From: a virus
Taxonomy: Duplodnaviria > Caudoviricetes
Virus record (IMG/VR): IMGVR_UViG_3300015606_001334
Location: 224,001 to 288,000 of that record
Strand: one strand, 5' to 3'
Length of the DNA: 64,000 nt
Part shown: piece after piece, positions 1,682 to 41,585 of the stretch
Position numbering within the stretch: the stretch's first letter is position 1
How the letters are laid out: each line of letters opens with the position of its first letter
The notes under the pieces: model-generated
The model's input: only the letters and a program-made list of their open reading frames with translations
Database searches by the model: none
Told to the model about the DNA's origin: nothing
Program-made: the position numbers and the translations under genes

Positions 1682-1704
1682 CAGGCAAAAGCGGAGGTGT
1701 AAAC

Positions 1705-2727: not shown

Positions 2728-3119
2728 GATAAGTCGGCCACAGTCTTTTTGTAAAGGTCGGTAATTTGTTTGATTCTCTTACCAAACATTTGCTTGCCTT
2801 GATCGTTACAGAAATTATCAATACGTGGAGTAACGTATTGTAGGAATTGATAGGTCCACTTGAGCAAATGAGGAATGACTTTAGGATTCTTGACAGTCAC
2901 CAAGCCAACTTCACTCATGAGGTCGCCGATCTTTTTACCATTCAGGATTGGACTACGGAATTGCTTCATCATAGCTTCGAGCTCTTTGTTAGCAGCTTCG
3001 TCTTTTCCGTAGGTATTTAGCTTAGCAGTATTAAGAGTGGTGAACCACATAATCTCATTGAGCATTTCAATATAGCCCTTGAGGTCTTTGGTCGCTTCAA
3101 ATAAAGTTTCTAATCTCAT
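2724..3119 (-). CDS. Hypothetical protein with capsid-targeting-like N-terminus
   Basis: MRLETLFE|A; ATGA-coupled to both neighbours. Confidence 0.75.
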   Translation of the reverse strand: MRLETLFEATKDLKGYIEMLNEIMWFTTLNTAKLNTYGKDEAANKELEAMMKQFRSPILNGKKIGDLMSEVGLVTVKNPKVIPHLLKWTYQFLQYVTPRIDNFCNDQGKQMFGKRIKQITDLYKKTVADLS

Positions 3120-3145
3120 AGGAATCTTTCTAGTCCTGCGTCAAT
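3116..3145. repeat. 30-bp perfect direct repeat, copy 1 (copy 2 at 4928..4957)
   Basis: tcataggaatctttctagtcctgcgtcaat is identical at both sites. It encodes IDAGLERFL-stop plus the next ATG. Confidence 0.9.
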
Positions 3146-3679
3146 AAATCTGTCCTGAACTTCTAGAATATCATCTCCATCTTCAAAACCGAACTTCACT
3201 AGCAAGAACGCCTTTTTAAAGTCAGGATCGATAGAAGATGTTCCACCACTAACAAGTATACCACCTCGAATATTTTTTATTCTCAGTAGATCTAAAAGAC
3301 CAGAAGTAGTTTCTTTGCTGATGTAGAAAATATTGCATTCAGTTACTCGTTTGTAAATCCCCTTTAAGCTCATCTTGAAGTCAAACTGAAGGTTGTAATC
3401 GCAACGATAAGGGAGAAAATCGAATTTGGTAAATGAATTAGTGTTGTCGAATTCTATTTCTCCAACAGAACCAAACTTCCATTCTGGAATGTCTTCGTCA
3501 GAAATCCCACCGAAGACTGCTCTAGAATCTTTGTTTAGATTGAGCTCGCCATTCTCAAATGAGAAATGTGATGCATTTTTCAAATCAAAATTCTTAAGGT
3601 GTAGTTTTAACCAAGAAACCACGTCTTCTGGGATATGCGCCCAAGGATTTGACGCTTCAAAAAGATTTTTTATTTTCAT
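3116..3679 (-). CDS. LRR-like paralog family member with C-terminal QDxxIDAG motif
   Basis: MKIKNLFE|A ... SLKGIYKRV ... DILEVQDRFIDAGLERFL. Confidence 0.75.
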   Translation of the reverse strand: MKIKNLFEASNPWAHIPEDVVSWLKLHLKNFDLKNASHFSFENGELNLNKDSRAVFGGISDEDIPEWKFGSVGEIEFDNTNSFTKFDFLPYRCDYNLQFDFKMSLKGIYKRVTECNIFYISKETTSGLLDLLRIKNIRGGILVSGGTSSIDPDFKKAFLLVKFGFEDGDDILEVQDRFIDAGLERFL

Positions 3680-4368
3680 GCAAATTGCTCAAATCCATTG
3701 TCTATCAAATGATCCTGAAGATCAAGAATATCTCGTTCGTCTCTATGAGTTGAATCTAAGTAGCTATTTACAGCATCAGTCACCTTAATGTTTCCAGCAA
3801 ATTCAACTCTGTCTAGATTCTTTATTCCTGCGAGGTAAGAAACATTTCGTAAACAGTCTTCTGATCCACTGAAATAAAGTTCACCACAAGATTCAATCAC
3901 TTTATGGATGTTCTTTAGTGATTTTATTCCAGTTCCATCTTGCTGATATCGTGTCATATGGTTAGGGAACCAAGAAGGGAACTCAGTAAGAGTTTCACAA
4001 GTTCCATAAACGCCGAAATCGTAAATTTCTTCACCACGTTTAAACTTGAACGGTGGAGCGCCAGCAATGTCATAGATGTAAATGGTAATGCCAAGCCCGT
4101 ATTCGCAGTCAAGAAACTCACCGTTAAATCTTACCTGCTTTAGATCGTCTTTATTGTTGTGGAGAAATTTATCTCTTTCGGACTGATCCATCTTTCTTTC
4201 AAGATAATACTTAGCGATCTTCTGCATATTCTTGCTCTTTGCGTTCTTATAGAACTCAGCAAACTTAGGACGATCATTCCCATTTAGGTTGCCGTAGAGT
4301 AGATTCGCAAGAATGTAATCTTCAAAGATTTCTTCCTGTGTAGATTCAAGTAAAGTATTCAGTTTCAT
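3676..4368 (-). CDS. LRR-like paralog family member
   Basis: MKLNTLLE|S ... IKSLKNIHKVIESC ... DILDLQDHLIDNGFEQFA. Confidence 0.75.
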   Translation of the reverse strand: MKLNTLLESTQEEIFEDYILANLLYGNLNGNDRPKFAEFYKNAKSKNMQKIAKYYLERKMDQSERDKFLHNNKDDLKQVRFNGEFLDCEYGLGITIYIYDIAGAPPFKFKRGEEIYDFGVYGTCETLTEFPSWFPNHMTRYQQDGTGIKSLKNIHKVIESCGELYFSGSEDCLRNVSYLAGIKNLDRVEFAGNIKVTDAVNSYLDSTHRDERDILDLQDHLIDNGFEQFA

Positions 4369-4931
4369 TAGCAGAATTCCTTAAAGCCAGCGTCATGAAG
4401 GGCTTCTTGACAGTCAAAAATATCTTTGCCTTCTCTTACATGACTCTGGACTATAGCAAATGCCCCGCCAAGTTTAGGATTTGCGGACCCATTTAGAAAA
4501 ACTTCCTTTAGACCCTTCACCTTCATTATTTCAAGAAGTCCAGAACGAATATCTCTAGGGAGAGTTAGCTTCTCGCATGAGACGATTCCCTTTGAAAGTC
4601 CTTTTAGGTCTTTTGGAATGCTTGCACCTTTCTTAAACTCGATATGCTTGCACTCGCTTGGTAGAATATCAAAGTTGTTAAGAGTAACTGAACCGTCTAG
4701 AATGAAAAGTTGGACTTTACCAAAACGAACGCTTTCAGGAAGCTTGTCATAAGGTTCCTCATAGTCATGAATGTGAATAAAGGTTCTAGATGTTACGATA
4801 CGTCCTCTGAAGGTTCCAAACTCTTCATTGGTTTTTATGTCGGCGGCGTGAACGAAGGTTAGCAACCACTTCTTCTGTTCTTCAGATAATGGGGCGGATC
4901 GGCTCTCTACTTTAATTTCAGTCAATTTCAT
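4368..4931 (-). CDS. LRR-like paralog family member
   Basis: MKLTEIKVE|S ... DLKGLSKGIVSC ... DIFDCQEALHDAGFKEFC. Confidence 0.75.
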   Translation of the reverse strand: MKLTEIKVESRSAPLSEEQKKWLLTFVHAADIKTNEEFGTFRGRIVTSRTFIHIHDYEEPYDKLPESVRFGKVQLFILDGSVTLNNFDILPSECKHIEFKKGASIPKDLKGLSKGIVSCEKLTLPRDIRSGLLEIMKVKGLKEVFLNGSANPKLGGAFAIVQSHVREGKDIFDCQEALHDAGFKEFC

Positions 4932-4957
4932 AGGAATCTTTCTAGTCCTGCGTCAAT
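4928..4957. repeat. 30-bp perfect direct repeat, copy 2
   Basis: Identical to 3116..3145. Confidence 0.9.
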
Positions 4958-5530
4958 GAACATATCTTGAATGTCTAGAACATCAAGATTTTCTTTCTTG
5001 CCTTTTTGTAGTAGTTTGACTGCGTTAAACAATTCGCGATTCTCAGCTACAGTTATGTTGTTTCTTATCGCCCCAAGCTTTTGGATTCGCGCTACATCCA
5101 ATAGTCCGTTCTTGACGTTCTTTCCGATGTAAAGCTCTTTGACTTCTTTAACCGCCTTGTGTATACCTTTTAAAGTCTGGACTTTCGAATTTAGGAACAT
5201 AAGGATAGAACATTTCTCCGGCAGCCAAGAGAAATCGGTAAATTCGCAAGAGTTGTCAAATCCTACCCAGCCAGCCTCCTTGATCTTAAAAGGAGGGAGA
5301 AACAGATCAGTCACTTTTCTGAAATAAAGAGAGGTAGTTTGATACGCGCAGAAGGAACCGTCTTTTTCGTCTACCCAATAATTCTTGTGGTCGTACGGAG
5401 TATAGTCAGCAGAACCCTTATGTGTAAATCGAGTCAGGTATCTGACCATTTCTTTAGTTGGAGGAGTCTCTCGACCTTGAGCCTTAGGCCATCTTCTAGC
5501 TTCAGCTTCGAATAATTCCATAGCCTTCAT
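4928..5530 (-). CDS. LRR-like paralog family member
   Basis: MKAMELFE|A ... TLKGIHKAVKEV ... DVLDIQDMFIDAGLERFL. Confidence 0.75.
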   Translation of the reverse strand: MKAMELFEAEARRWPKAQGRETPPTKEMVRYLTRFTHKGSADYTPYDHKNYWVDEKDGSFCAYQTTSLYFRKVTDLFLPPFKIKEAGWVGFDNSCEFTDFSWLPEKCSILMFLNSKVQTLKGIHKAVKEVKELYIGKNVKNGLLDVARIQKLGAIRNNITVAENRELFNAVKLLQKGKKENLDVLDIQDMFIDAGLERFL

Positions 5531-6033
5531 TTAGACTTCCTTTCACCGGTCTTCTTATTTGGTTTGGTTCCATTTGAGGCACGGGTTCTTTTTGTCTTGT
5601 TCGCTGGCTTTCTACCACCAGCAAAGATTGACTGTTCGGTCAAGACACGGAATTTCATGCCGTTTGCTGCACAGAACGCCTCAGCTGCTTGCCACTTCGC
5701 ATGGTTAACCATAATTGCGAGCTTATCGTAATTGGAGCTACGTTCAGTAAGGACTGATTCCTTCAATGGCTTTACCTCAACCAATTCCTTGATAAGGTTA
5801 CCTTCTTTGTCCTTGTAGACGACGATAAAATCTGGGAAATAGTAATGGACTTTTCCGTCTGTAGGCTTTACATAAGGGATCTTGATTTCTTCTGATCCCC
5901 ATTTGTAGACACTTGGATGACTATCAAAAAATTTACAAACAGAAAGTTCCCAAGAACTTCTACAGAAGATGTTTCCTGGGTTGCCAAGGTATTTCCCTGG
6001 ATTTTTAGGTATGAATCTAGCTCTAAGTGCCAT
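5527..6033 (-). CDS. gp4: Head completion nuclease, T4 gp4-like
   Basis: PKNPGKYLG, RSSWE, KWGSEEIKIPY, HYYFPDF, EVKP and KWQAA motifs. Confidence 0.85.
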   Translation of the reverse strand: MALRARFIPKNPGKYLGNPGNIFCRSSWELSVCKFFDSHPSVYKWGSEEIKIPYVKPTDGKVHYYFPDFIVVYKDKEGNLIKELVEVKPLKESVLTERSSNYDKLAIMVNHAKWQAAEAFCAANGMKFRVLTEQSIFAGGRKPANKTKRTRASNGTKPNKKTGERKSK

Positions 6034-7211
6034 TATGGAATAATCTTATCAGACTGATCAGCCGGGTTGGAAGGATTAGAAGCCGCAGGTTCTGAAGGCT
6101 TCGCAATTGAGTTATTTATTCCTTGTGCTGCGGTGCGCAACGTATCTCTACCAATTGCGGTCGTTACTCGGCCAGCCATCGCTCCAGCAAATCCTGAGAG
6201 CTCGGATCCGACGAAAGGTATCTTGCTGACGGCCTTACCGATGATGCTTGATGCCATACCACCAGCCATTCTTGTGCCTGCGTTGATCACCGAATCGAAC
6301 AAAGAGTTCTTCATTGTGTCAGCTGCGGTCAAACCACCAGATTTTCCAGGACGGTTGCCCAAAATATCGGTCTTTCCCCACTGAGGAGATGGAGTTCCGT
6401 TGGTGTTTCGCATCTCAGAGACATGAAGAGAATCGTAGTCAAATTGGACAGTTAGACCATTTCCTTCACCAGTTTCATGATTCACTTCGTCAAAGTCGAA
6501 GCGGCTGATACGTGGGTTGTTGAAGGTGTACTCACACATTCTAGTACCATGTGCGAAGATCTGACGAATTACGATGGCTTGCAAACAGTTGTAAGCATCT
6601 CCAAATAGGACGCCTCGAGTTGCAGTGTCCATCTGATTCTCAAGAAGAGGGAACGAGAAGTTCATACCTGACTGCTGAGCTTGTCTCACATCTAGGCCGG
6701 TCGGAAAGTCGCTTCTTGAGATTGGGGAGAATGCTTTGCGATACGCGTTGAAGAAGTCGGTAGTGTTGTTGCCGATGTCGTCAATGAAGGTCATCGAAAG
6801 AGGTTCATGACGAATTTCTTTCAATACCTTGGTTCTAAAATTGTAGTAGTTGACGTCTTCGTAGACGAACTCAACTTTAGGTCTGTCGATCATCTTTACT
6901 AGGAAGGTAAAGGCGTTCTTCTCGCGACCTCCCATCAACTTGTCAGAGTATCGTGGATCAAATTTGAAATCCACCTTGAACATGAAGCGATGCTTTGGTG
7001 CATACTGAACAAGGTCGGCAGCATACTTTGTGGATTGCCATCTGCCCGAGAACGGTGCTGCACCCTCTCCTTCTTCATTTCCTACGACACTCTTAAGAAT
7101 GTCACCACCAATCGCTCCAATGGCTCTGCCACCAAAGTCGCGCACTGCGCCGCCGAACATGTCGTATGCGCTTTTTTCTAAATTTAGGTTTACACCCGGC
7201 AAGAGACTCAT
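6033..7211 (-). CDS. Tail-tube-fold baseplate/tube initiator protein (gp54/gp19-like)
   Basis: APKHRFMFKV, IDRPKVEF, PLSMTFIDD and LTVQFDYD tube-fold pattern; late promoter at 7239..7245. Confidence 0.6.
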   Translation of the reverse strand: MSLLPGVNLNLEKSAYDMFGGAVRDFGGRAIGAIGGDILKSVVGNEEGEGAAPFSGRWQSTKYAADLVQYAPKHRFMFKVDFKFDPRYSDKLMGGREKNAFTFLVKMIDRPKVEFVYEDVNYYNFRTKVLKEIRHEPLSMTFIDDIGNNTTDFFNAYRKAFSPISRSDFPTGLDVRQAQQSGMNFSFPLLENQMDTATRGVLFGDAYNCLQAIVIRQIFAHGTRMCEYTFNNPRISRFDFDEVNHETGEGNGLTVQFDYDSLHVSEMRNTNGTPSPQWGKTDILGNRPGKSGGLTAADTMKNSLFDSVINAGTRMAGGMASSIIGKAVSKIPFVGSELSGFAGAMAGRVTTAIGRDTLRTAAQGINNSIAKPSEPAASNPSNPADQSDKIIP

Positions 7212-7271
7212 TGTTAGTCCTTAAAATAAAGTTTAGAGTATTTATTGGAAAAGGTCAAATGCAAAAACACG

Positions 7272-7300
7272 TTTACTTTCTTGAGATTTCAGTGTACAAT
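7272..7300 (+). promoter_or_regulatory. Sigma70-like promoter for the HNH-rIIA-rIIB unit
   Basis: gTTTACT-17 bp-TACAAT. Confidence 0.65.
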
Positions 7301-7307
7301 TCATAGA

Positions 7308-7712
7308 ATGAAGTTACTTACGCGCGAACAATTTAAGGAACAGGTGTTTGCAAGATCTGGTGGGAAGTGTGTCTTTTGCGACAAACCTGCCATTGATCCC
7401 CACCATATCCTCGACCGTAAGCTTTTCCCAAATGGCGGCTACTATTTGAGCAACGGCGCGGCTGTCTGCGAAGAGCACCATCTGATGTGCGAGTATACTT
7501 TAATCTCTGTTGAAGAAGTTCGTGAAAAAGCAGGGATAGATAAAGATGAACATGTTCTCCCTCCAGGCTTCATCCATCACGTCCATTACGACAAATGGGG
7601 AAATCTCTGTAATATCGACGGGACCAGATCGGCTGGACCATTGATTGGAGATGATGGATGCCTTAAGGCACTAAAAGCCAAAGGGATGATCAGACTTTTT
7701 AACCGATACTAA
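7308..7712 (+). CDS. HNH endonuclease domain protein
   Basis: CVFC..DPHHI..SNGAAVCEEHH. The ATG at 7308 is preferred over the TTG at 7245. Confidence 0.8.
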   Translation: MKLLTREQFKEQVFARSGGKCVFCDKPAIDPHHILDRKLFPNGGYYLSNGAAVCEEHHLMCEYTLISVEEVREKAGIDKDEHVLPPGFIHHVHYDKWGNLCNIDGTRSAGPLIGDDGCLKALKAKGMIRLFNRY

Positions 7713-7721
7713 GGAAGAAAA

Positions 7722-10586: not shown

Positions 10587-10587
10587 T

Positions 10588-11712: not shown

Positions 11713-11723
11713 AAGGAAATTCG

Positions 11724-12949: not shown

Positions 12950-12951
12950 GC

Positions 12952-13275: not shown

Positions 13276-13283
13276 GGAAAAAC

Positions 13284-13550: not shown

Positions 13551-13562
13551 TCAGAAGAGCGT

Positions 13563-13598
13563 AAAAGAAAAGGGAGTCTTTCGACTCCCTTTTTATTT
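13563..13598. terminator. Bidirectional intrinsic terminator
   Basis: aaaAGGGAGTC-tttc-GACTCCCTtttt between convergent genes. Confidence 0.85.
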
Positions 13599-13611
13599 GC
13601 CTCGTTAAAGC

Positions 13612-14025
13612 TTAATCTAGGAAGATTACGCGGGCGACGCCTGACTGTGCGTTAGTGAAAGTGATACGAATAGTATTTGCATCAACGATCTGTGTAGTGT
13701 CAGGGATTAGAACGTAGTTGTTCTCATCGAAGCACTGAACGATAACGTCATCATAACCGAGATTATGATTGATAGTCCAAATGGTCTGAGGCTCAGTGAT
13801 AGTCAAAATGGCCTTCTTCATGCCGCTTGCGACAAGAGAAGTAACCGAAATTGCTTGTAGTTGACCGTTCTGATAACCTAGAACTTGACCTTCACCAATG
13901 GTAATTGCATCAAATTGGCGTGGGCCGCTACCACGACGAATAATGACGGTTTCCTGAGGAACATCGCTATTCAAATAGCCACGTTTTGGAAGTTCTGTCT
14001 GGATAAAATCCTCAAATGCGCTCAT
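13612..14025 (-). CDS. Virion structural/fibre-associated protein
   Basis: WTINHNLG..VIVQCFD...NTIRITF...SGVA domain typical of phage fibre modules. Confidence 0.6.
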   Translation of the reverse strand: MSAFEDFIQTELPKRGYLNSDVPQETVIIRRGSGPRQFDAITIGEGQVLGYQNGQLQAISVTSLVASGMKKAILTITEPQTIWTINHNLGYDDVIVQCFDENNYVLIPDTTQIVDANTIRITFTNAQSGVARVIFLD

Positions 14026-15665
14026 TATACGGCCTCGCTAATATCTACCTGTAGAGTACCAGAGGTGTTAGCACCTGCGTACGCTTGGTCAGTAATGAAT
14101 AGGTAACCACCGTTGACGTTGTAGTTTCCAGCAGCATCAGTAATTGTGAAGCCTTGGAATGCGTTTGCAGTGGAGTTCTGTAGGGTTAGGTTGTTTGCAG
14201 TGCCGGTGTACTTAGCAGTAACCTTAGCAATGTTTGCAACTGGAGTACCGATCGCAGCAAGCTGAGAGAATGCAGCGAAGGTTAGGGTTCTAGTTGCGAA
14301 ACCACCAACCACATAAGCTGCACCAGAAGTAATGGTGTTACCAGTTACACCTGCGAGGTTAGGTAGTGATAGTCCAGAGAAGTTGAAGGAACCCTTAGCG
14401 TCGGTATCCTTGATCACTAGAGTGCGAGACCAAGTTGTACCTGAACCAGTCCAAGAACCAGACCATGTTCCGCTTGGAGCGGTTAGAGATGGTGCAGCAT
14501 TTAGAGATTGGTTTGCAGTAATGGTTACAGTGTAAGACTGACCAGCAGCAGAAGAAATCAATCTAGCTGGAGAACCAGTGATAGTGATTGCTGCAGTTGG
14601 AGCAGTATCAGCGATCGAAATAGCTGCTGAACGGGTAGAAACTGCGCCGTTAGAAGCCTTAGTTGCAGTGATGGTGTAGTTGTTTACGCCAGTTACGTAA
14701 CCACCAGAAGCACGGGTAACAGACTTACCAGCTGCGTAAGTGTTTGGAGATGCAACGGTTAGGTTAGCGGAGGAGGTGTATGCTACAGTATCAGCGTTGG
14801 TGATAGTAGAAGAAACGGTTGCGGTTTCAGTACCCTTCAACGCAGACTGACCAGCTGGGTAAGCAATAGTGATAGTGCCAATAGTTGGTGCAGTTTGGTT
14901 TAGAGTTACAGAGTTACCGGAAGTAACGGTAGTACCGAAAGTTCCTAGAGCATTCTTAGCTCTTGCGGAAATGGTTTGAGCACCGGAGCCAGAACCGACA
15001 ACGAAGGTACCGGAGAAAGTACGGTTACCAGAACCTGCAGAACCAGTTGCGCCAAGAGTCATAGAAGACAATGCAGAAGCTGCGCCACCAGCGATAACTT
15101 CAACGTAGGTTGCATCATTTGGAACAACACCAGAAACTTGAACCACGTCGCCAGACTTGACTTCAGTTTGTGAACCTGGTAGAGCGCCGATGGTTAGAGC
15201 GCCGACGACTGGACCAGCGCCTGCTAGGTGAACAAGACCAGAAGCGGTAGCACCAGTAGAGGAAACCACATTGATTGTGGTATCACCAGCTGGGATAGTT
15301 AAGTTTGCGACACCTGTGTAAACGCGAGAAGAGTCAGAAGCAATTTTGGTTAGGGTTGCCTGAACTCCGTTTACCGTAACGGTTGGAGAATAGAATGCAT
15401 TTCCGCCTTCTGCAAAAATCTTAACGGTGATGTTCGCGTTGTCTGAAGTAGCTTCAGTTAGGACTGCATTTGCTGGAACAGTGTTTGGATCGTAAATCTT
15501 TTGTGCGACAATACCCGAAGATTGAGGAACGATGTCAGTAATGTAGACATTACCAACAATAACGGTCCCTAGGCCTGCGGAAAGCTTATTGTCAACGTAT
15601 TCTTTTGACGCGACACCCAACGGTAGTGTTGGATCGCTATCGACAATTGGAGCAAATAGTTTCAT
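14025..15665 (-). CDS. Thr/Ser/Ala/Gly-rich beta-sandwich (Ig-like) fibre or decoration protein
   Basis: ASKEYVD fibre motif, beta-rich low-charge composition; late promoter at 15697..15703. Confidence 0.65.
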   Translation of the reverse strand: MKLFAPIVDSDPTLPLGVASKEYVDNKLSAGLGTVIVGNVYITDIVPQSSGIVAQKIYDPNTVPANAVLTEATSDNANITVKIFAEGGNAFYSPTVTVNGVQATLTKIASDSSRVYTGVANLTIPAGDTTINVVSSTGATASGLVHLAGAGPVVGALTIGALPGSQTEVKSGDVVQVSGVVPNDATYVEVIAGGAASALSSMTLGATGSAGSGNRTFSGTFVVGSGSGAQTISARAKNALGTFGTTVTSGNSVTLNQTAPTIGTITIAYPAGQSALKGTETATVSSTITNADTVAYTSSANLTVASPNTYAAGKSVTRASGGYVTGVNNYTITATKASNGAVSTRSAAISIADTAPTAAITITGSPARLISSAAGQSYTVTITANQSLNAAPSLTAPSGTWSGSWTGSGTTWSRTLVIKDTDAKGSFNFSGLSLPNLAGVTGNTITSGAAYVVGGFATRTLTFAAFSQLAAIGTPVANIAKVTAKYTGTANNLTLQNSTANAFQGFTITDAAGNYNVNGGYLFITDQAYAGANTSGTLQVDISEAV

Positions 15666-15718
15666 AGATAGGTCTCTTTAAAAGGCTGGTTGATGATATT
15701 TATCTTTATGATTCTGTT

Positions 15719-16744
15719 TTATAGTTTACCCGCTGCTTTCAAATCCTTAGAAATACCGGTGGTAATCACTTTAGGATCTGAAAGGTCGATGCTCCTAAGA
15801 ACATCTAAATACTGCTGATACTCAGGGTGTGCAGGATTTCCGATGTATTTATGACTAAACTCAGCATCAGTGCCAGTTCTAAAGTCAACAATCATATCGA
15901 AGAAGATTCCATCTGCACCAACACGATGTCCAAGTTCGATAAACTTTGGAATCTCTTTGTAATTTGCTTGTTGTACAACAAAGAGGATCGTGAACATTCC
16001 AACTTGACCTCTCTTCTTTTTATGCTTTACGAAAAAGAGATTTTTGATTAGCTCTTTCCAACTACCGCCTTGACGAGTATAGGAATAAGTTTCTTCTGTT
16101 GCTGCGTCTATACTTATGCTGACATTTCTAACTCGATCTTGCAAGCCAATTTTGTTCCAAGTTCTTCTGTTTAGAAGCTGGGCATTGCTATGTAAATCAA
16201 AATTAATGTGGGCATACTCTGGAGAATTAACAACTTCCTTCATGACGTTAATGAAGTGCTTGCTTGCGAAGGGCTCTCCGCTCCCAGATATGTGTAGGGT
16301 TTTTAGAGTTGGCATCCAAGGTCTAACACCTGACTCATAGTAGACTTTGAATTTTTCTTGAGAAGCATCATCATTGTAGATGTTCTTAGTATTTCTGCAA
16401 GAAGGACAAACCAAATTGCATGAAATATCGTAAGACAGCTTTATTGATTCAGGCTTCTTTTCGAGGTATTCATCAACATTTACTGAGTCTCTATCCAATA
16501 AGCCAACATCATTTGCTAATCTTGGACAAAATTCACGAGAGCAATATTTGTAGTCACCATCAATGACAGACCTACGAATTTCTTTTGCCCTTGGTGAATT
16601 CCAAATTTCTTCAGGTGAGTGCCTGAAAATATTTCCGAGAGGAATACTTAGCCACTTTTGACAGCAAAAGTAAACGTCTCCGGACCTGTTCAGCTCCATG
16701 TTGGTGAATGGACGGGTACAGAATTTCTTAGTAAGATCTATCAT
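15719..16744 (-). CDS. Radical SAM protein with N-terminal SPASM/twitch-like domain
   Basis: CNLVCPSC (CxxxCxxC) and SGSGEPF. N-terminal C..PF...GDVYFCC...LGNI...EIWNS...C...C. Confidence 0.85.
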   Translation of the reverse strand: MIDLTKKFCTRPFTNMELNRSGDVYFCCQKWLSIPLGNIFRHSPEEIWNSPRAKEIRRSVIDGDYKYCSREFCPRLANDVGLLDRDSVNVDEYLEKKPESIKLSYDISCNLVCPSCRNTKNIYNDDASQEKFKVYYESGVRPWMPTLKTLHISGSGEPFASKHFINVMKEVVNSPEYAHINFDLHSNAQLLNRRTWNKIGLQDRVRNVSISIDAATEETYSYTRQGGSWKELIKNLFFVKHKKKRGQVGMFTILFVVQQANYKEIPKFIELGHRVGADGIFFDMIVDFRTGTDAEFSHKYIGNPAHPEYQQYLDVLRSIDLSDPKVITTGISKDLKAAGKL

Positions 16745-16755
16745 TATTCTCTCAT

Positions 16756-16788
16756 AAAAAATGACGCCGCTGGGACGTCATTCTTTTT
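16756..16788 (-). terminator. Intrinsic terminator after the tail tube gene
   Basis: Minus strand AATGACGTC-ccagc-GGCGTCATT followed by a T-tract. Confidence 0.7.
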
Positions 16789-16794
16789 GATTGA

Positions 16795-17388
16795 TTAGGT
16801 AGCGTGGCCGCCGATAGCAGTGCCGTAACCTTGACCTGCAAGCTCTTGGTAAGCGTGGTCGAAGCGAATAGTTAGGCTGATCTGAGCTGCTTCAGATGCT
16901 GCGTAATCCATTTCACCCCAATCACAAGCTTGAATGAAACAACCTTCCATCTTCCAGGTTTCAACAACTGCTTCATTGCCGTCTAGCAATTCTAGCTTCA
17001 TTGCGAACTTGTAACCAGATGCGGTTGGTTCTGCATTCAACCACTGACCATTTGCAGAGTCTGCACCGATCAAACGTTGTTGGGTTTCTAGTTGTTGTTG
17101 AACAACGGTAGCTGCTAGACCAGTGATGTCATCTTCAACGGTTAGGCTTAGAGATTCCCAAGAATGCTTGCCTGCGACGTAAGCGGTAGAGTTGTAACGA
17201 TCTAGCTTAACTTCTTCGAAGGATAGGTTTGGACGGGAAACAGTGACTGCCTGCGCGGTTAGATCTTTACCGTTACCATTTGCAGCCTTAGCGATACCGA
17301 TAAAGCGGACTTGCCAACGGTTCTTTAGTTTTGGTGCTAGGATACCAGCGCCGGAGCCTGGGATACCCATTTGTGATAATGTTGCCAT
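16795..17388 (-). CDS. gp19: Tail tube protein, gp19-like
   Basis: RPNLSFEEV, YVAGKHSWE, W.MEGCFI...DWGEMDY, ISLTIRFD; strong SD; late promoter at 17440..17446. Confidence 0.85.
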   Translation of the reverse strand: MATLSQMGIPGSGAGILAPKLKNRWQVRFIGIAKAANGNGKDLTAQAVTVSRPNLSFEEVKLDRYNSTAYVAGKHSWESLSLTVEDDITGLAATVVQQQLETQQRLIGADSANGQWLNAEPTASGYKFAMKLELLDGNEAVVETWKMEGCFIQACDWGEMDYAASEAAQISLTIRFDHAYQELAGQGYGTAIGGHAT

Positions 17389-17541
17389 TGTGTATTCTCC
17401 ACTTAAAAGTAAGGGTTAAAACGTGTCTTTACGTTTTGGTATTTATTTGAATTGGGAATAATTGGTCAATTTCCGAGGGTTTCACATTTCCTCTTTCGTG
17501 TGTTTTCGAATAAATATAGATTATTGTGTCATTTGATCGTC

Positions 17542-18342
17542 ATGAAACTCTCTTCCCTGCTTGAAGCAAAACAACCAAAACGTTGGCTTACTGAACCGTC
17601 AGAAATTGCATCCTACATAGGGGAAGCAAGATTAGGGGTAGTCAGCGACTATCAAGTAAACAAAGATGGGACTGTTGATTTCTTTGGCGATGTCTTGTAT
17701 GATGCTGCGATATTCGAGGATCTATACAAGAATGAAAAGTTTCCACATTTCGCAAATACTCTCCCTCTAAAGTTTGGAACAGTGGATGGACAGTTTAATA
17801 TCTCTCGTCTAAGATTGAAAACATTAGAAGGTTGTCCAACTGACATAACTGGAATGTTCAATGCTTCATATAACATTTTTTCAGACCTTAAAGGCGGGCC
17901 AAAAAGAGTTGGTGGGGATTACTATGCAAGCTATAATCCAGAACTAAAGTCATTGGAAGGCTTGGCTGAAATTGTCGTAAAAACCCTCAACTTTACGGCA
18001 ACTAGCATTTCAGAAGACGATCTAAAATATCTTCCAGAGAAAATTGATTCGCTACGAATTGGTCAATGTCCAAATATCAAATCGTTGGCTGACATCGACA
18101 AATATGTCAAAGAGGCAAAACGAACAATAAGCCTATCTGATAATTCTTTGGAGCGAAATATCCTAGGACTTCTTAAGATCAAAGGACTAACTGCTCTACA
18201 ATATGGATTCCCGTCTGGTAAACCATCCGATAAGGCCCTCGAAATCATCGATAAATATCTTCCAGTTAAGGATGCTAACGCATTGCTAGACTGTCAAGAC
18301 GAACTTATCGACGCAGGACTATCGGAATATGCCAGAATATAA
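17542..18342 (+). CDS. LRR-like paralog family member (long form)
   Basis: Start at 17542 (MKLSSLLE|A) after ATAAATA at 17510..17516. About 22-aa LxxLxGxPxxVxGxF repeats; ends LLDCQDELIDAGLSEYARI. Confidence 0.8.
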   Translation: MKLSSLLEAKQPKRWLTEPSEIASYIGEARLGVVSDYQVNKDGTVDFFGDVLYDAAIFEDLYKNEKFPHFANTLPLKFGTVDGQFNISRLRLKTLEGCPTDITGMFNASYNIFSDLKGGPKRVGGDYYASYNPELKSLEGLAEIVVKTLNFTATSISEDDLKYLPEKIDSLRIGQCPNIKSLADIDKYVKEAKRTISLSDNSLERNILGLLKIKGLTALQYGFPSGKPSDKALEIIDKYLPVKDANALLDCQDELIDAGLSEYARI

Positions 18343-18991
18343 CACAACAATCGAAGAACTTTTCTCAAAATACAAGCTAGATTTCAGAATCCTTTCTGAT
18401 TACATTCGCGCTACCTATGACGCAACAACAATGAGAGGAATTCCTCTCAACGTCATCAAGGATAGCTTAAGCGACGGCCAAACTGCTTCAAAGCTTTGGG
18501 TAGTAGATGAGCTTGGAAAATTCCTAACCATCAAAGAGAAATCTATCGGAGTATTCGGTGGATGGGTTGGTTTGCTATGCAGATTCCTAGTTGAAATGAT
18601 AGGAACTCCAAAGATCGCTAACATTGAGCTAGACGAAACACTGAAGCTCATCAACAATTATGTTATGCTCGGTCACCAGGATAAATTCCGGTTCATTCAT
18701 ACCGACATGTATGCGTTTCCATACAACGACGATCAGTTCGATGTCTACGTGAACACGAGCGGCGAGCACATCCCTTCTTTGAAGCAATGGATAGAAATGA
18801 TTCCTGCTGGCAAAATCGTTTGCATTCAGTCGAATAATTTCTTCTCTCATGAGCAACATATCAATTGCGTAAACAATGTGACTGAACTTGAGAACCAAAT
18901 TCTTGAGGCATCAAACGTAAAGGATACGGTTTTTAGAGGAACACTGAAGTTACCGATTTACGATCGGTATATGGTGATAGCAAAAACCTAA
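18329..18991 (+). CDS. Class I SAM-dependent methyltransferase-like protein
   Basis: IGVFGGWVG glycine loop, NIELD, FDVYVNTSGEH. Confidence 0.7.
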   Translation: MPEYNTTIEELFSKYKLDFRILSDYIRATYDATTMRGIPLNVIKDSLSDGQTASKLWVVDELGKFLTIKEKSIGVFGGWVGLLCRFLVEMIGTPKIANIELDETLKLINNYVMLGHQDKFRFIHTDMYAFPYNDDQFDVYVNTSGEHIPSLKQWIEMIPAGKIVCIQSNNFFSHEQHINCVNNVTELENQILEASNVKDTVFRGTLKLPIYDRYMVIAKT

Positions 18992-19026
18992 AAAAGAAAA
19001 AGGGAGCCGAAGCTCCCTTTATTTTT
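18991..19026. terminator. Bidirectional intrinsic terminator
   Basis: AAAGGGAGC-cgaa-GCTCCCTTT flanked by A/T tracts. Confidence 0.85.
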
Positions 19027-19042
19027 GCGTCTAACCCGAAGA

Positions 19043-20887
19043 TTAACCTGGCATTTGAGCGCCAGTGTTAAGAACGCGGATTGGGATGTAAATGAATTCA
19101 GCCGCTTTTACTGGCTTAATTGCAACATCCAACCATAGCTCGTTTCTGTCGATTCGAGTTGCGGTGTTGTTTGATTCGTCGCAAAGTGTAACGAAGTCAT
19201 ATAGACCGCGCTTGATCAAGATGTCATTCAAGAAACCGTCGGCTGCTGCCTTGAGGTTGTCACGAGTGATTTGATCGTTTGGTTCGAAGACGAATGGGAA
19301 TGCACCCTTACGTAGACCACGCTTCATGTACATAACTAGACGAACAACGTTTACGCGGTCTAGAGCGGAAGCTGCAGATGCTGCAGTCTTCTGACCCCAA
19401 ATGATGATACCACGACCTGGGAAGTAAACGATTGGGTTGATGTTCTTGTAGAACTCGTATAGGTTGTCACGTTGACCTTGGTTTAGGTTACATTCAACGA
19501 ATGTAGTTGGAGTACCGAGCGCGCCGGTCACATAACCAACCTTTGAAACGCCAGTAACTAGACCACGACGAACACCAGCTGGAGCGAACCATAGTTCTGC
19601 AACAGAGTCGCTGTACGCATAGGTACGTAGTGCGATACCAGATGGAGCGCAAACAACGTCATTGCCGTCCAAGTTGGATGCTAGACCCCATGGGTAGTAG
19701 TAAGCAACGGAGGTAGAGTTGAAACGCTCAGAGGTATTTGCCCAGTTTGCGACTTCGTCTGGGTTCTTGAAGACTGGAGTATCACCGATTACGAATGCTT
19801 CGTCGTTAACTGCGACAGATAGAGCTAGCATTTCGTCAACAACTTCTGGGTAACCTGGACATACGATTAGGTTGTATTCGTACATTTCAGAACGAACTTC
19901 AGTGTTGCTGTTGATTTCAGCTTGTAGTGCGGTGCGGATCGCTAGACGTTTTGCTGAATCGCTTGGACCTAGTGGGTTGTTCAATAGAACTTCGATTAGA
20001 TTTAGCTCGAAATAATCGCCAGCTACGAATGGAGCGGAGCCATTCACAATAGTGAAGCTTACGTAGCCATTGTCGTATGGTGAACCGACGGTACCGTTTG
20101 CGTGAGGACCGGTCAAGGAACCAACTACGGTAAATTGGGTTGCAGAGATGAATTCGACTGCAATGGTTTCTGCAACTGCTAGATCGCCTACTTGTAGATT
20201 AACGAATGATCCGTTGCCGGTGCCAGTGTATGACGATGGACCATACTGTAGCGCAAAGGTGAAGTAATCACCAGCTACGAATGGGGTAGAACCTGCATTG
20301 ATAGTGAAACGAATCTTGTCGGAAATAAAGACTTGACCGACAGTTGCGATGCCGATTAGACCAGATTTAGAACCAGTTACGTTGAAAGTATTTGCGCTAG
20401 TTGCAACTACGGTGAACGACTCAAGTCTAACCATTGGGCTAACTGCTTGTAGACCAGTGATAGTACCATTACCTACGCCCATTAGATTTGGGGTGGTAGC
20501 AAGAGGGGTTCCGATACCGATAAATGATAGTGGTGCATCGGTTAGATCGACGTTTGCGCGAACAACAAAAGCTTTGTTGCCTACGCCAAGGTATTGATTT
20601 AGTGCAAATAGACCGTATTCGTTACGAGCGTCGCCATGATATGCTTCACCGCTAGCGTTTTGCCAGAAGTAAGGAATACCATATAGCTGTACAGATTGAC
20701 CTAGAGAGGTAACAGTTCTGACGACAGAGTGCTCATTTGTGCCTGCTGCTGGAGTTAGACCGTTAGGCTGCATCTTGCCGGCGCGAGTTGCGACGAAGAA
20801 TAGCGGAACGGTTGGAGCGGACACAGGAATGTAGAATGAGTCATCAATAACTGGGACTGTTACGCCAGGTGAAACTAATGTTGGCAT
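19043..20887 (-). CDS. gp18: Tail sheath protein, gp18-like
   Basis: LVSPGV N-terminus; YYPW, WFAPAG..RG, NPIV.FPG.G..IWGQKT, DRVNV.RL, FEPND, IKPVKAAEFIYI. Confidence 0.95.
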   Translation of the reverse strand: MPTLVSPGVTVPVIDDSFYIPVSAPTVPLFFVATRAGKMQPNGLTPAAGTNEHSVVRTVTSLGQSVQLYGIPYFWQNASGEAYHGDARNEYGLFALNQYLGVGNKAFVVRANVDLTDAPLSFIGIGTPLATTPNLMGVGNGTITGLQAVSPMVRLESFTVVATSANTFNVTGSKSGLIGIATVGQVFISDKIRFTINAGSTPFVAGDYFTFALQYGPSSYTGTGNGSFVNLQVGDLAVAETIAVEFISATQFTVVGSLTGPHANGTVGSPYDNGYVSFTIVNGSAPFVAGDYFELNLIEVLLNNPLGPSDSAKRLAIRTALQAEINSNTEVRSEMYEYNLIVCPGYPEVVDEMLALSVAVNDEAFVIGDTPVFKNPDEVANWANTSERFNSTSVAYYYPWGLASNLDGNDVVCAPSGIALRTYAYSDSVAELWFAPAGVRRGLVTGVSKVGYVTGALGTPTTFVECNLNQGQRDNLYEFYKNINPIVYFPGRGIIIWGQKTAASAASALDRVNVVRLVMYMKRGLRKGAFPFVFEPNDQITRDNLKAAADGFLNDILIKRGLYDFVTLCDESNNTATRIDRNELWLDVAIKPVKAAEFIYIPIRVLNTGAQMPG

Positions 20888-21058
20888 TGTTTTTCTCCTT
20901 AAAAAATTCCCTAAATGTTTGAATTGGAAGCCATTAAAGCTGGAATCTTAGGAATATTTATCGGATTTCGGCTTTTTATCTTATAAATCGATGAGTTTTT
21001 CGGTGAAAGGTGAAGTGTACCTATAAATAGGGATGAACCGTTTTCAACCGAAATTGTC

Positions 21059-21865
21059 ATGAGATTCAAAGAATACCTTCTAGAAGCACCACAAGACGAA
21101 GAAACAATTAAAGAGTTTTTAACTGAAACTCTTGGACTACACCCGTCCGATTTTCTCATCAAAGAAGATAATTCAGTTACTTTGTTCTCAGATCTAAATA
21201 TAGATGCAGTCCATGGTCAAACCTTAAAAAGGCTGCCAATTAAGTTCAACGAAATTGATGGTGATATTTGGATTAATAACTGTCAGTTGGAAACCTTAAT
21301 AGGTCTTCCAGCCATCGCAGAAAACATTTACCTAATCAACACTCGAATTAAGAGTTTGAAATATCTACCAAAGACAATTCACGGTGACTTGGTAATAAAC
21401 AACAACCGAAATCTTGCCTCTCTTGAAGGTTGTCCAGATTCCGTTCCTGGCGACTTTAGCTGTAGTGACAATCACGAATTGTTATCACTAGAAGGCGGGC
21501 CAAAAGAGGTTGGCAAAAGCTACAAAATCGATACTTGCAACAAGCTCAAGAGCATTGAGGGTATTGCATCAACTATCGGTAAACACCTCTCTATCTGTAA
21601 CAACCGTGGTCTTGACAACCTAGAAGGCATCAGTAGAAAAGTCAAGAGTTGCGGTGGTAAGCTTGACGTGTCTGGTAACTATTTCTCACGCGCCATCATG
21701 GGAGTAGTTACATTGAAGGGCATAACTGGTTTAGAATATAAATTTGGTGGCAAGGCATCGAAGGCCTTCGAAATTATCTTCAAGTGTCGTGAGGAAGGCA
21801 AGGATGCTCTTGAGTGTCAAGACCTACTCATTGATGCTGGACTACAGGAATTTGCAAAGCTATGA
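21059..21865 (+). CDS. LRR-like paralog family member (long form)
   Basis: TATAAATA at 21022..21029; MRFKEYLLE|A; LASLEGCPDSVPGDFSCSDN-type repeats; ends ALECQDLLIDAGLQEFAKL. Confidence 0.8.
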   Translation: MRFKEYLLEAPQDEETIKEFLTETLGLHPSDFLIKEDNSVTLFSDLNIDAVHGQTLKRLPIKFNEIDGDIWINNCQLETLIGLPAIAENIYLINTRIKSLKYLPKTIHGDLVINNNRNLASLEGCPDSVPGDFSCSDNHELLSLEGGPKEVGKSYKIDTCNKLKSIEGIASTIGKHLSICNNRGLDNLEGISRKVKSCGGKLDVSGNYFSRAIMGVVTLKGITGLEYKFGGKASKAFEIIFKCREEGKDALECQDLLIDAGLQEFAKL

Positions 21866-22698
21866 AAACCACATTCAAAAAACTTCTCATCAACGAATCT
21901 CAAACCAAATTTCTCAGTGAAGAGTCTGCTATCAGAGAATGGCTAGACAAAATGGGAGTTGAAGATTACTCAATCAACGGCGACATGACTGTATCGGTCA
22001 AGGGTCCTTTGTCTCTAGATGACAAAAATCTTGAAGAAATTCCGGTGAAGTTCAGTGAAGTCGGCGGATCCATTGATGTTACTAGCAACAAGTTAAAGCG
22101 AATTGACTGGGCACCAGCTACTGTGAACGGGGATTTTGACGCGTGGGATAACGAGATCGAGACCCTACAAGGTGGTCCAACTGAAGTCAAAGGCTCGTAT
22201 GACGTAGATGGTAACAAGATTACCGATCTTCATGGAAGCCCTAAAACCGTTGGCGTATCGTTCATCGTTTCAAAGAACCCTTTGCATGGACTTGCAGGTT
22301 GCCCTCAATCAGTTGGAAGTTATTTCAAAGCTGAAGCTTGCAACCTAACTGAGATTGACGACCTACCAAGATCTGTGGGTACTAACATCTACCTACAAGG
22401 CAATCATATTTCTTCGTTGAAGAACATCAACAAGTTCCTCAAAGAAGTCAACGCTAAGAATGATGCAAAGGGCGGTAAGGTCGTTTTGTCCGCTAACCCG
22501 ATTACTGCGGGCATATCTGCCCTACTAGCTATCAAGGGCTTCAAAGAAGTAGTCTTTGATGGAGTAAAGGGTCAGAGCAGCTCTTACCAAGAACTCATAA
22601 AGGTTGCCGAGATCATCAACAAGGGATTGAAGGCTAACGAAGATCCATTCGACATCCAAGAGAAGATTTTGGATTCAGATTGGTCATCCTTCGCTTAA
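21862..22698 (+). CDS. LRR-like paralog family member (long form)
   Basis: MKTTFKKLLINE|S; IETLQGGPTEVKGSYDVDGN-type repeats; ends PFDIQEKILDSDWSSFA. Confidence 0.8.
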   Translation: MKTTFKKLLINESQTKFLSEESAIREWLDKMGVEDYSINGDMTVSVKGPLSLDDKNLEEIPVKFSEVGGSIDVTSNKLKRIDWAPATVNGDFDAWDNEIETLQGGPTEVKGSYDVDGNKITDLHGSPKTVGVSFIVSKNPLHGLAGCPQSVGSYFKAEACNLTEIDDLPRSVGTNIYLQGNHISSLKNINKFLKEVNAKNDAKGGKVVLSANPITAGISALLAIKGFKEVVFDGVKGQSSSYQELIKVAEIINKGLKANEDPFDIQEKILDSDWSSFA

Positions 22699-41550: not shown

Positions 41551-41585
41551 AAAAAGGCCATATTTTGGTATGGCCTTTTCTTTTT
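41551..41585 (-). terminator. Intrinsic terminator
   Basis: AAAAGGCCATA...TATGGCCTTTT. Confidence 0.7.

What the first reader, a model, noticed from the sequence alone, without database searches (positions are those of the whole stretch)
3116..22698. Seven-member family of variable LRR-like proteins with a constant C-terminal QDxLIDAG module
Seen: 3116..3679, 3676..4368, 4368..4931, 4928..5530, 17542..18342, 21059..21865 and 21862..22698. All share four parts: (i) an N-terminal MK..L(F/L)E| leader; (ii) a P.KF..V.G cap; (iii) a variable number (about 1-2 versus 5-6) of roughly 22-aa LxxLxGxPxxVxGxFxxxxN repeats ending in SLKGI.K.V..C; (iv) a conserved end, GLL.L..IK.L...A..I......D(I/L)(L/F)(D/E)xQ(D/E)xLIDAGLxx(F/Y). 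Middles are highly diverged. They sit at three loci under late promoters, two inserted antisense between tail genes. Inference: a diversified repertoire of packaged binding proteins, with a variable solenoid for target recognition and a constant docking/ejection tail. It could be an injected anti-defence adaptor library, reminiscent of LRR-adaptor families of eukaryotic viruses.
Basis: partly seen in the sequence, partly recalled or inferred. Interest (0 to 1): 0.82.

Follow-up and report, generated by a model that had tools for sequence, protein, structure and literature searches.

The report
Capsid-loaded LRR protein family of a jumbo phage
A 360-kb T4-type jumbo phage carries 16 diverged copies of a small leucine-rich-repeat binding protein, each starting with a short tag like the one phage T4 uses to load proteins into its head. 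They are therefore probably cargo delivered into the host cell with the DNA; a relative's copy has been found in purified virions.

Summary
The seven ORFs exist as stated, and the family has 16 members in this 359,550-bp phage genome. The cultured relative Ralstonia phage RsoM2USA has at least 12.

- **Fold.** The variable middle is a true LRR solenoid. Profile matches: YopM 6e-23, SspH2, IpaH. AF2 model pLDDT 93; SspH1 LRR Z 14.8.
- **Leader.** The N-terminal MKLxxLLE / MKTFKxFLxE leader is disordered in the models. It resembles the T4 capsid targeting sequence (MKTYQEFIAE) and ends in an L/I-x-E site. It also heads at least 8 unrelated proteins of this genome, and matches none of about 1,500 internal methionines.
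- **Head machinery.** The phage encodes a gp21-type prohead protease, a gp23-type capsid protein and a scaffold-like protein.
- **Virion evidence.** Published virion mass spectrometry of RsoM2USA lists family member ORF89 and another leader-bearing protein, ORF132.

Best reading: these are late-expressed, head-packaged, protease-trimmed internal proteins, probably ejected into the host to bind host targets. The targeting signal is the leader. The conserved C-terminal module is modelled as a folded cap, not a docking tail. An anti-defence role is inference only.

This scan has noted similar leader-tagged LRR families in other giant phages. Classification: new variant of a known kind (T4 internal proteins).

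The parts
3116..3679 (-). Family member, 187 aa (short form), leader MKIKNLFE|A
3676..4368 (-). Family member, 230 aa, leader MKLNTLLE|S
4368..4931 (-). Family member, 187 aa, variant leader MKLTEIKVES
4928..5530 (-). Family member, 200 aa, leader MKAMELFE|A. Folded: residues 1-18 are disordered, followed by a short degenerate LRR and a helical C-cap.
17542..18342 (+). Family member, 266 aa (long form), leader MKLSSLLE|A, antisense between the tail tube and sheath genes
21059..21865 (+). Family member, 268 aa, leader MRFKEYLLE|A. AF2 pLDDT 93: residues 1-10 disordered, N-cap, about 8 LRR turns, 3-helix C-cap.
21862..22698 (+). Family member, 278 aa, leader MKTTFKKLLINE|S, repeats of 21-aa period
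17510..17516 (+). ATAAATA late-promoter-like core, 26 nt upstream of the 17542 start
21023..21029 (+). TATAAATA/ATAAATA late-promoter-like core, 30 nt upstream of the 21059 start
6113..6119 (-). ATAAATA, 80 nt upstream of the head-closure gene (5527-6033) that heads the four-gene family cluster
2724..3119 (-). Non-family 131-aa protein with the same leader (MRLETLFE|A), directly downstream of the family cluster
248..1132 (-). Non-family 294-aa protein with a T4-CTS-like leader (MKLTFKEFLAE|A). Absent from the related contig L010.
23796..24434 (-). Non-family 212-aa protein starting MKLRALLE|G. Its leader-profile score (8.7 bits) is below the best internal control (9.7 bits).
41584..42204 (-). 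T4 gp21-type prohead protease (Peptidase_S77), the presumed processing enzyme
40173..41057 (-). Acidic coiled-coil scaffold-like protein starting MDEILQKLLE|S. Weak T4_CASP match, below the cut-off.
38926..40131 (-). T4 gp23-type major capsid protein

Best explanation
These genes encode a multigene family of head-packaged 'internal' proteins built on an LRR binding scaffold. There are 16 paralogs in this phage.

Shown or well supported:
1. They are LRR solenoids of varying length, flanked by a small N-cap domain and a conserved helical C-cap.
2. They sit in late-type transcription units among head and tail genes.
3. They begin with an 8-14-residue disordered leader that closely resembles the T4 capsid targeting sequence and ends in an L/I-x-E site. 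That site type is cut by gp21-type prohead proteases (my recollection of Black et al. 1994, not read here), and this phage encodes such a protease.
4. The same leader heads unrelated proteins of the genome.
5. In the cultured relative RsoM2USA, a family member and another leader-bearing protein were identified in purified virions.

Inferred:
- The leader docks the proteins onto the scaffolding core of the prohead.
- The protease removes the leader after Glu.
- The mature acidic LRR proteins stay in the capsid, are ejected with the DNA, and bind host proteins through the variable LRR surface. Different paralogs would have different targets, as T4 Ip1-3 each block a different GmrSD nuclease.
- The constant C-terminal module is most simply the structural end-cap of the solenoid. 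An added common-partner role is open.
For: - **LRR.** The profile of the family matches YopM 6e-23, SspH2 9e-19, IpaH7.8 4e-14 and SspH1 4e-12. AF2 gives pLDDT 93.2 and pTM 0.89. VIA-align gives SspH1 LRR Z 14.8 with 217 residues aligned at rmsd 3.8. The best matches of the short form are all LRRs.
- **Leader is disordered.** pLDDT is below 50 for residues 1-10 in one model and 1-11 plus 14-18 in the other.
- **Leader resembles the T4 CTS.** T4 has MKTYQEFIAE (PMC8442874). Here: MKLTFKEFLAE, MKKTFKHFLIE, MRFKEYLLE, MKLSSLLE. RsoM2USA has MKTFKQFLSE.
- **Leader is specific to protein starts.** Two leader patterns hit 19 N-termini of about 490 crude genes and 0 of 1,770 internal Met. With a leader HMM, 8 non-family proteins score above the best of 1,517 internal-Met controls. 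RsoM2USA shows the same picture: about 20 carriers and 0 of 1,778 internal Met.
- **T4-type head machinery.** Peptidase_S77 1.5e-27, Gp23 1e-94, a portal, and a scaffold-like protein starting ...LLE|S.
- **Late control.** ATAAATA occurs 32 times in the window against 9.2 +/- 3.1 expected. 78 of 133 genomic copies lie in the 8.5% of the genome that is intergenic. The motif precedes the structural genes and the family units.
- **Virion presence.** RsoM2USA ORF89 (253 aa, full family member) and ORF132 (leader MKTFKQFLNTLME|A) are among the 10 bands of purified virions assigned by LC-MS/MS (PMC8504454).
- **T4 precedent.** T4 IPs are diverse, share only the CTS, are injected, and each of Ip1-3 inhibits a distinct GmrSD (PMC3012670, PMC12373910).
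Against: - There is no proteomic, processing or ejection data for this phage. The RsoM2USA assignment is by gel band plus MS ('most likely correspond'), does not separate head from tail, and reports no N-terminal processing.
- Two or three of the 16 members lack a clean L/I-x-E within the first 14 residues (genome 1406, 290491, 228368).
- Some distant relatives carry the C-module without this leader.
- The proteins are mostly acidic (pI about 5), unlike the basic T4 IPs.
- No host target is known, and the host of this phage is unknown.
Confidence: 0.6

Rival explanations
1. The proteins are external virion components: LRR adhesins or accessory receptor-binding proteins on the tail, baseplate or capsid surface that bind host surface structures. 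The paralogs would widen host range.
For: Three of the seven window members lie between tail tube, sheath and sheath-stabiliser genes. Virion MS in RsoM2USA does not say where ORF89 sits. LRR proteins such as internalins bind surfaces; internalins are among the structural matches.
Against: The leader is shared with unrelated proteins, including enzymes (a nucleoside deoxyribosyltransferase-like and a nucleotidyltransferase-like protein). It is also shared in form with the scaffold-like protein, and it resembles the T4 signal for the head interior. The proteins are small single domains with no tail-fibre or baseplate-attachment domain. The four-gene cluster follows a head-closure gene, not a fibre gene.
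Confidence: 0.12
2. The proteins are not packaged. They act in the infected cytoplasm late in infection, for example as adaptors or chaperones. The common N-terminus is inherited family sequence, or a translation-start preference of this phage.
For: There is no direct data for this phage. Several members and distant relatives have imperfect or different N-termini. MK-rich starts are common in phage genes.
Against: The leader occurs on proteins with no detectable similarity to the family, and never after internal Met. It is disordered and outside the fold. Two leader-bearing RsoM2USA proteins were found in purified virions. The phage has the matching protease.
Confidence: 0.15
3. The conserved C-terminal QDxLIDAGL..F module is a docking or ejection signal that binds one common partner (scaffold, portal, ejection machinery or a host hub), and the LRR supplies specificity.
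For: The module is the most conserved part both among paralogs (A2) and among orthologs (entropy 0.87, last 30 aa 0.74, against 1.18 for the LRR). It always sits at the extreme C-terminus, including on members with a different N-terminal body (the 351-aa member). The last ~18 residues, which hold the motif, lie beyond the part that superposes on the SspH1/IpaH LRR domains in most matches. Relatives with the same repeats (Arcobacter 499-aa proteins) lack the module.
Against: The module is modelled as ordered helices packed onto the last LRR turns (pLDDT 91-97), as an LRR end-cap would be. No partner was identified. The packaging role is already explained by the leader.
Confidence: 0.25

Closest known systems
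Phage T4 / T-even internal proteins (IPI, IPII, IPIII; also Alt) with the capsid targeting sequence (Mullaney and Black 1996; PMC3012670, PMC8442874, PMC12373910)
   Same: A short N-terminal leader of very similar sequence, ending in Glu. The phage encodes a gp21-type protease, a gp23-type capsid protein and a scaffold. There are many diverse, non-essential-looking cargo genes that share only the leader. Expression is late. A relative's member has been found in virions.
   Different: T4 IPs are small, basic and unrelated in fold. Here 16 paralogs share one acidic LRR scaffold plus a conserved C-cap. The cargo set is much larger (16 family members plus at least 8 others). Processing and ejection have not been shown.
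Bacterial type III effector LRR domains: YopM, and IpaH/SspH/SlrP substrate-recognition domains
   Same: The best sequence and structure matches. Short 20-22-aa repeats and a capped solenoid of similar size. Conceptually, these are also binding modules delivered into a target cell.
   Different: There is no NEL E3-ligase domain and no type III secretion signal. The N-cap and the C-terminal helical motif differ. The matches show a shared LRR class, not shared function.
'Novel' LRR class with conserved segment VxGx(L/F)x(L/C)xxNxL (Miyashita, Kuroki and Matsushima 2014, PMID 24164306, not read here; summarised in PMC8181103)
   Same: Relatives found here (e.g. the Arcobacter 499-aa proteins and metagenomic proteins) and some repeats of the long members (VPGDFSCSDNHEL, VTGHFHCSMNKEL) fit this consensus.
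   Different: In this phage's 16 members only 3 repeats fit the strict pattern; the rest are degenerate. The leader and the C-module are not part of that description.
Ejection ('E') proteins of phiKZ-like giant phages such as SPN3US and 201phi2-1 (PMC5694885)
   Same: Many head-internal proteins are processed by a T4-related prohead protease after Glu and delivered to the host.
   Different: Those have long propeptides (often more than 100 aa) and A/S/G-x-E sites. Here the leaders are T4-length (8-14 aa) with L/I-x-E.

Membership tests
Leucine-rich repeat (LRR) superfamily | Tandem 20-30-aa repeats with an LxxLxLxxN-type conserved segment | tested here: met
   21-22-aa period in the long members. 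The profile matches solved LRR proteins: YopM 6e-23, SspH2 9e-19.
Leucine-rich repeat (LRR) superfamily | Curved solenoid fold with a parallel beta-sheet on the concave side | tested here: met
   The AF2 model has pLDDT 93 with strands every ~22 residues. SspH1 LRR Z 14.8, 217 aligned, rmsd 3.8, and all top rows are LRRs. Short member: best hits are all LRRs but Z is at most 7.2.
Leucine-rich repeat (LRR) superfamily | Match to a curated Pfam LRR model above threshold | tested here: not met
   No Pfam LRR family at E <= 1 for any of the seven. PF12799 is precomputed on only a few relatives. This shows a gap in the models, not evidence against the fold.
'Novel' VxGx(L/F)x(L/C)xxNxL LRR class (Miyashita et al. 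2014) | Conserved segment VxGxLxLxxNx(x)L in most repeats | tested here: inconclusive
   Only 3 strict matches in the 16 members, against 1 in 123,422 aa of other ORFs. Relatives fit well. The consensus was taken from the summary in PMC8181103; the original paper was not read.
IpaH/SspH NEL-type E3 ligase effectors | C-terminal NEL ubiquitin-ligase domain after the LRR | tested here: not met
   The proteins end 55-80 aa after the last regular repeat. There are no Pfam hits, and the PDB profile matches cover only the LRR part.
T4-type internal (CTS-targeted) head proteins | N-terminal ~10-20-aa capsid targeting sequence resembling MKTYQEFIAE | tested here: met
   Direct comparison of the leaders with the T4 CTS as quoted in PMC8442874. 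The leader lies outside the fold.
T4-type internal (CTS-targeted) head proteins | Leader ends at a prohead-protease site (cleavage after Glu; L/I at P3 in T4) | tested here: met
   13-14 of 16 members have [LIF]-x-E within residues 6-14. Cleavage after Glu by T4-type proteases: PMC5694885. The L/I-x-E rule for T4 is from my knowledge of Black et al. 1994.
T4-type internal (CTS-targeted) head proteins | Phage encodes a gp21-type protease and a scaffolding core | tested here: met
   Peptidase_S77 1.5e-27; phrog head maturation protease 1.5e-59. For the scaffold-like acidic coiled coil, the T4_CASP match is weak and below the cut-off.
T4-type internal (CTS-targeted) head proteins | Protein present inside mature heads, with the leader removed | not testable with these tools
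   Only indirect evidence: RsoM2USA ORF89 and ORF132 were found in purified virions by SDS-PAGE plus LC-MS/MS (PMC8504454). Location and processing were not reported.
T4-type internal (CTS-targeted) head proteins | Ejected into the host with the DNA | not testable with these tools
   Inference from T4 (PMC12373910).

The most novel reading that the evidence does not exclude
The 16 LRR paralogs are a capsid-delivered library of pre-made inhibitors. Each would be tuned by its LRR surface to a different host immune protein, for example variants of modification-dependent (GmrSD-type) nucleases aimed at this phage's possibly hypermodified DNA. This would be a phage counterpart of the injected LRR effectors of type III secretion, and a general strategy of T4-type giant phages.
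Probability: 0.3. Interest if true: 0.85.

Novelty: new variant of a known kind. Interest (0 to 1): 0.6.

Why it matters
What giant phages carry in their capsids besides DNA, and what that cargo does in the first minutes of infection, is largely unknown outside T4 and the phiKZ group. This case offers four things:

- A sequence-readable tag marks a large presumptive cargo set: 16 LRR paralogs plus at least 8 other proteins, some of them enzymes.
- The main cargo family uses a scaffold that evolution repeatedly uses for specific protein binding.
- The family and the tag are both present in a cultured, tractable phage, RsoM2USA, where two tagged proteins have already been seen in virions.
- The family is very large in metagenomes. 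15,625 clusters match the profile, though many share only the LRR repeats, and there are tandem arrays next to a T4-type terminase in another lineage.

Packaging, processing, ejection and target-finding experiments can therefore be done directly.

Tried and rejected
- **Pfam and PHROGs on the seven proteins.** No meaningful hit.
- **megablast of 6 kb against the phage collection.** No match.
- **tblastn of three members against phages.** Only RsoM2USA has full-length relatives. The 351-aa member found nothing.
- **XacN1, second-closest by capsid protein.** The family profile found nothing.
- **Foldseek against PDB.** E-values were weak (best 2.5e-3), although all hits were LRRs. VIA-align and the sequence profile settled the fold.
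- **ESM Atlas look-ups of the C-module and of the whole model.** Only unnamed viral clusters came back.
- **Complex prediction with two copies of the 268-aa member**, run to see whether the constant module could drive self-association. Verdict 'no answer' (score 0.00), which is evidence neither way.
- **dN/dS on the concave face.** Not attempted. Only one related DNA contig was available, and at 52-89% protein identity synonymous sites are saturated.
- **Assigning RsoM2USA ORF38, ORF257 and ORF438 by molecular weight.** The results were ambiguous and were dropped.
- **Strict 'T4 late promoter' TATAAATA.** Only one family gene (21059) has the full octamer. The 7-mer ATAAATA is the motif shared with the structural genes.
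Full report
**Where the window lies.** The window is bases 224,001-288,000 of a 359,550-bp virus record rated complete, with GC 42.9%. Its major capsid protein is closest to Ralstonia phage RsoM2USA (68% identity). Next come Xanthomonas phages XacN1 and Xoo-sp13, followed by PA5oct, SCTP-2 and others. The record encodes T4-type head genes:
- a Gp23-family capsid protein (1e-94);
- a Peptidase_S77 (gp21-type) prohead protease (1.5e-27; PHROG head maturation protease 1.5e-59);
- a portal;
- an acidic coiled-coil scaffold-like protein between capsid and protease (weak T4_CASP match below the cut-off);
- rIIA/rIIB, two sheath paralogs and two tube-like paralogs.

**Checking the observation.** All seven ORFs are open at the stated coordinates. 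They align over their full length at 24-34% identity to the first sequence, with the shared start, the SLKGI.K.V..C and IKGL blocks, and the D.L(D/E).Q(D/E).LIDAGL..F end. A profile of the seven finds nine further ORFs elsewhere in the genome, and iteration converges on 16 members. These lie at seven loci, mostly in tandem with overlapping stop/start codons. Across all 16, only Met1 and the Q of the C-terminal motif are invariant. The antisense placement between tail genes is correct.

**What the body of the protein is.**
- Pfam and PHROGs are silent.
- A profile of the family matches solved LRR proteins by sequence: YopM 6e-23, SspH2 9e-19, IpaH7.8 4e-14, SspH1 4e-12. The matches cover query positions ~53-211.
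- An AlphaFold2 model of the 268-aa member, built on 34 sequences, has pLDDT 93.2 and pTM 0.89. Residues 1-10 are disordered. Then come a small helix-plus-strands N-domain, strands every ~22 residues from 63 to 180, two irregular turns, and three terminal helices.
- VIA-align gives the SspH1 LRR domain Z 14.8 with 217 residues aligned at rmsd 3.8, spanning model residues 11-250. All other top rows are also LRRs (Foldseek agrees weakly).
- A 200-aa short member also models well (pLDDT 87.5, residues 1-18 disordered). Its best matches in an unbiased search are all LRRs, but at a modest Z of at most 7.2. The short forms are therefore short, degenerate solenoids.
- The repeat type resembles the 'novel' VxGx(L/F)x(L/C)xxNxL class summarised in PMC8181103. 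Relatives fit it well, but only three repeats in this phage's 16 members fit strictly.

**The leader is the key feature.** The leaders fall into two related forms, MK-x3-[LI]-[LF]-E and MK(x)TFKxFLxE. The second form is close to the T4 capsid targeting sequence MKTYQEFIAE. T4 internal proteins are cut once next to that sequence, and it suffices to load foreign proteins into T4 heads (PMC8442874; PMC5694885). In 13-14 of the 16 members an [LIF]-x-E lies within residues 6-14. That is the site type of gp21; cleavage after Glu is documented in PMC5694885, and the L/I-x-E rule is from my knowledge of Black et al. 1994.

The leader is not a family heirloom:
- Two leader patterns hit 19 N-termini among about 490 crude genes and none of 1,770 internal methionines.
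- A leader HMM trained on family N-termini scores eight non-family proteins above the best of 1,517 internal-Met controls.
- Carriers include the 131-aa and 294-aa proteins next to the family cluster, a nucleoside 2-deoxyribosyltransferase-like protein and a nucleotidyltransferase-like protein.
- The scaffold-like protein starts MDEILQKLLE|S.

**Timing.** ATAAATA is the core of the T4 late promoter TATAAATA (my knowledge). It occurs 32 times in the window against 9.2 +/- 3.1 expected. Genome-wide, 78 of 133 copies lie in the 8.5% that is intergenic. 93 copies lie within 120 nt upstream of a gene in sense orientation, typically 20-40 nt upstream. The genes so marked include capsid, scaffold, protease, both sheaths and both tubes. 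The motif lies 26 and 30 nt upstream of 17542 and 21059, and 31 nt upstream of the member at genome 1406. The four-gene cluster has no motif of its own; it overlaps and runs on from the head-closure gene, which has one 80 nt upstream. Late expression is what packaging into proheads requires.

**Experimental anchor.** RsoM2USA has 12 members by the iterated profile, plus about four more by C-terminal motif, and about 20 leader-bearing ORFs. Again none of its 1,778 internal Met match. Its ORFs 88-90 are three tandem members. The RsoM2USA paper separated purified virions by SDS-PAGE and assigned the ten most abundant bands by LC-MS/MS. Among them are 'unknown' ORF89 (28.57 kDa) and 'hypothetical' ORF132 (76.64 kDa) (PMC8504454).
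- ORF89 is a full family member: MKTFKQFLSES... at the start and ...CQEELIDMGYEKLAEM at the end.
- ORF132 (RsoM2USA_132, 87582-89606) is not a family member, but starts MKTFKQFLNTLMEA.

So two leader-bearing proteins, one of this family, are abundant enough in virions to be seen on a stained gel. The paper did not note the LRR, the leader or the family. It does not report where the proteins sit in the virion or whether they are processed.

**Variation and spread.** A 39.9-kb metagenomic contig from a related phage is syntenic across the cluster. Family orthologs are 52-89% identical, and one slot holds a different member (~30% to the nearest paralog). Flanking genes are 59-95% identical. The contig lacks the 294-aa leader gene and has an extra 64-aa ORF with a duplicated leader. 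Orthologs of the 268-aa member range from 45 to 81% identity and keep both leader and C-motif. An exhaustive profile search finds 15,625 clusters at E <= 1e-3 and 9,926 at E <= 1e-10. Many share only the N-domain and repeats, such as the Arcobacter 499-aa proteins. Many others, of ~250-350 aa, share the whole architecture. Another lineage has nine members in 8 kb around a T4-type terminase gene. The repertoire is diversified and gene content shifts, but these are stable paralogs, not a hypervariable cassette system.

**The C-terminal module.** It is the most conserved region among orthologs: entropy 0.87, and 0.74 for the last 30 aa, against 1.18 for the LRR and 1.43 for the N-domain. It is always C-terminal, even on the 351-aa member, whose first ~200 residues are not LRR. 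The models show it as ordered helices packed on the last turns, and up to residue ~250 it superposes on the end of the SspH1/IpaH LRR domains. The simplest reading is a family-specific end-cap. The final ~18 residues carry the motif and lie beyond most structural alignments, so an extra role is possible but untested.

**Function.** By analogy with T4, these are probably delivered binders against host factors. T-even internal proteins are diverse, share only the CTS, and are injected. Ip1, Ip2 and Ip3 each inhibit a different GmrSD nuclease (PMC3012670, PMC12373910). The proteins here are mostly acidic (pI about 5), so a DNA-condensing role like that of the basic T4 IPs is unlikely. Target identity is unknown.

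**Earlier notes of this scan.** Several earlier notes describe CTS-like leaders on LRR or DUF285 paralog families in other giant phages. I did not test those. One of them gave the lead to the LRR class paper. What this case adds is the link to a cultured phage with published virion proteomics.

**Verdict.** This is a new variant of a known kind, namely T4-type CTS-targeted internal proteins built as an LRR multigene family.

Noticed in passing
window 248-3119 (-) and genome 222576-224251 (L016): The stretch downstream of the four family genes is a run of further leader-bearing or leader-like genes: 131 aa MRLETLFEA, 294 aa MKLTFKEFLAEA, 223 aa MKLTFKDFLKES and 165 aa MKFTLKQYLAND. Together with the next four family members it forms a ~10-kb late block of presumptive capsid cargo behind the head-closure gene.
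   Followed up: partly
window 1954-2727 (-) and 248-1132 (-): The 257-aa protein is a Zeta-toxin/P-loop-kinase-like protein (PF06414 1.4e-5). It and the 294-aa leader protein match consecutive parts of one 788-aa PHROG (phrog_12810). This suggests a gene that is split here and fused in other phages.
   Followed up: no
genome 62802-63329 (-) (L012:803-1330) and genome 2290-3039 (+) (L001): Two enzymes carry the leader: a nucleoside 2-deoxyribosyltransferase-like protein (PF15891 2.3e-19, starts MKYNALLES) and a weakly nucleotidyltransferase-like protein (starts MKSFKQFFYEQ). They are possible packaged enzymes.
   Followed up: no
window 6033-7211, 16795-17388, 14025-15665, 19043-20887 (all -): Tail genes are duplicated. 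There are two tube-like genes (392 aa and 197 aa) and two sheath genes (546 aa and 614 aa). A 341-aa ORF (15719-16744) with a weak match to a PHROG annotated 'radical SAM domain-containing protein' (4.1e-8) lies between the 546-aa sheath gene and the 197-aa tube gene.
   Followed up: no
window 43979-46816 (-): A 945-aa protein next to the portal has a peptidase/endolysin-like domain at residues ~690-835. It may be a head- or ejection-associated cell-wall hydrolase.
   Followed up: no
L010:12789-12983 (+) versus window 2724-3119: The related contig has an extra 64-aa ORF whose first 8 residues (MKLETLFE) duplicate the leader of the preceding 131-aa gene. It also lacks the 294-aa gene at window 248-1132. 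Leader-bearing genes are therefore gained and lost between close relatives.
   Followed up: partly
L037 (NCBI GCA_040384165.1 contig, 8,087 bp): Nine family members, all ending ...LLACQEELxxAGLExYAKL, flank a T4-type large terminase gene in an unrelated metagenomic contig. Only some have the MKLN..L.E or MKTFKEYLTE leader.
   Followed up: partly
window 18329-18991 (+): A 220-aa ORF overlaps the stop of the 17542-18342 family gene and is probably co-transcribed with it. It has no leader (starts MPEYNTT) and no family match.
   Followed up: no
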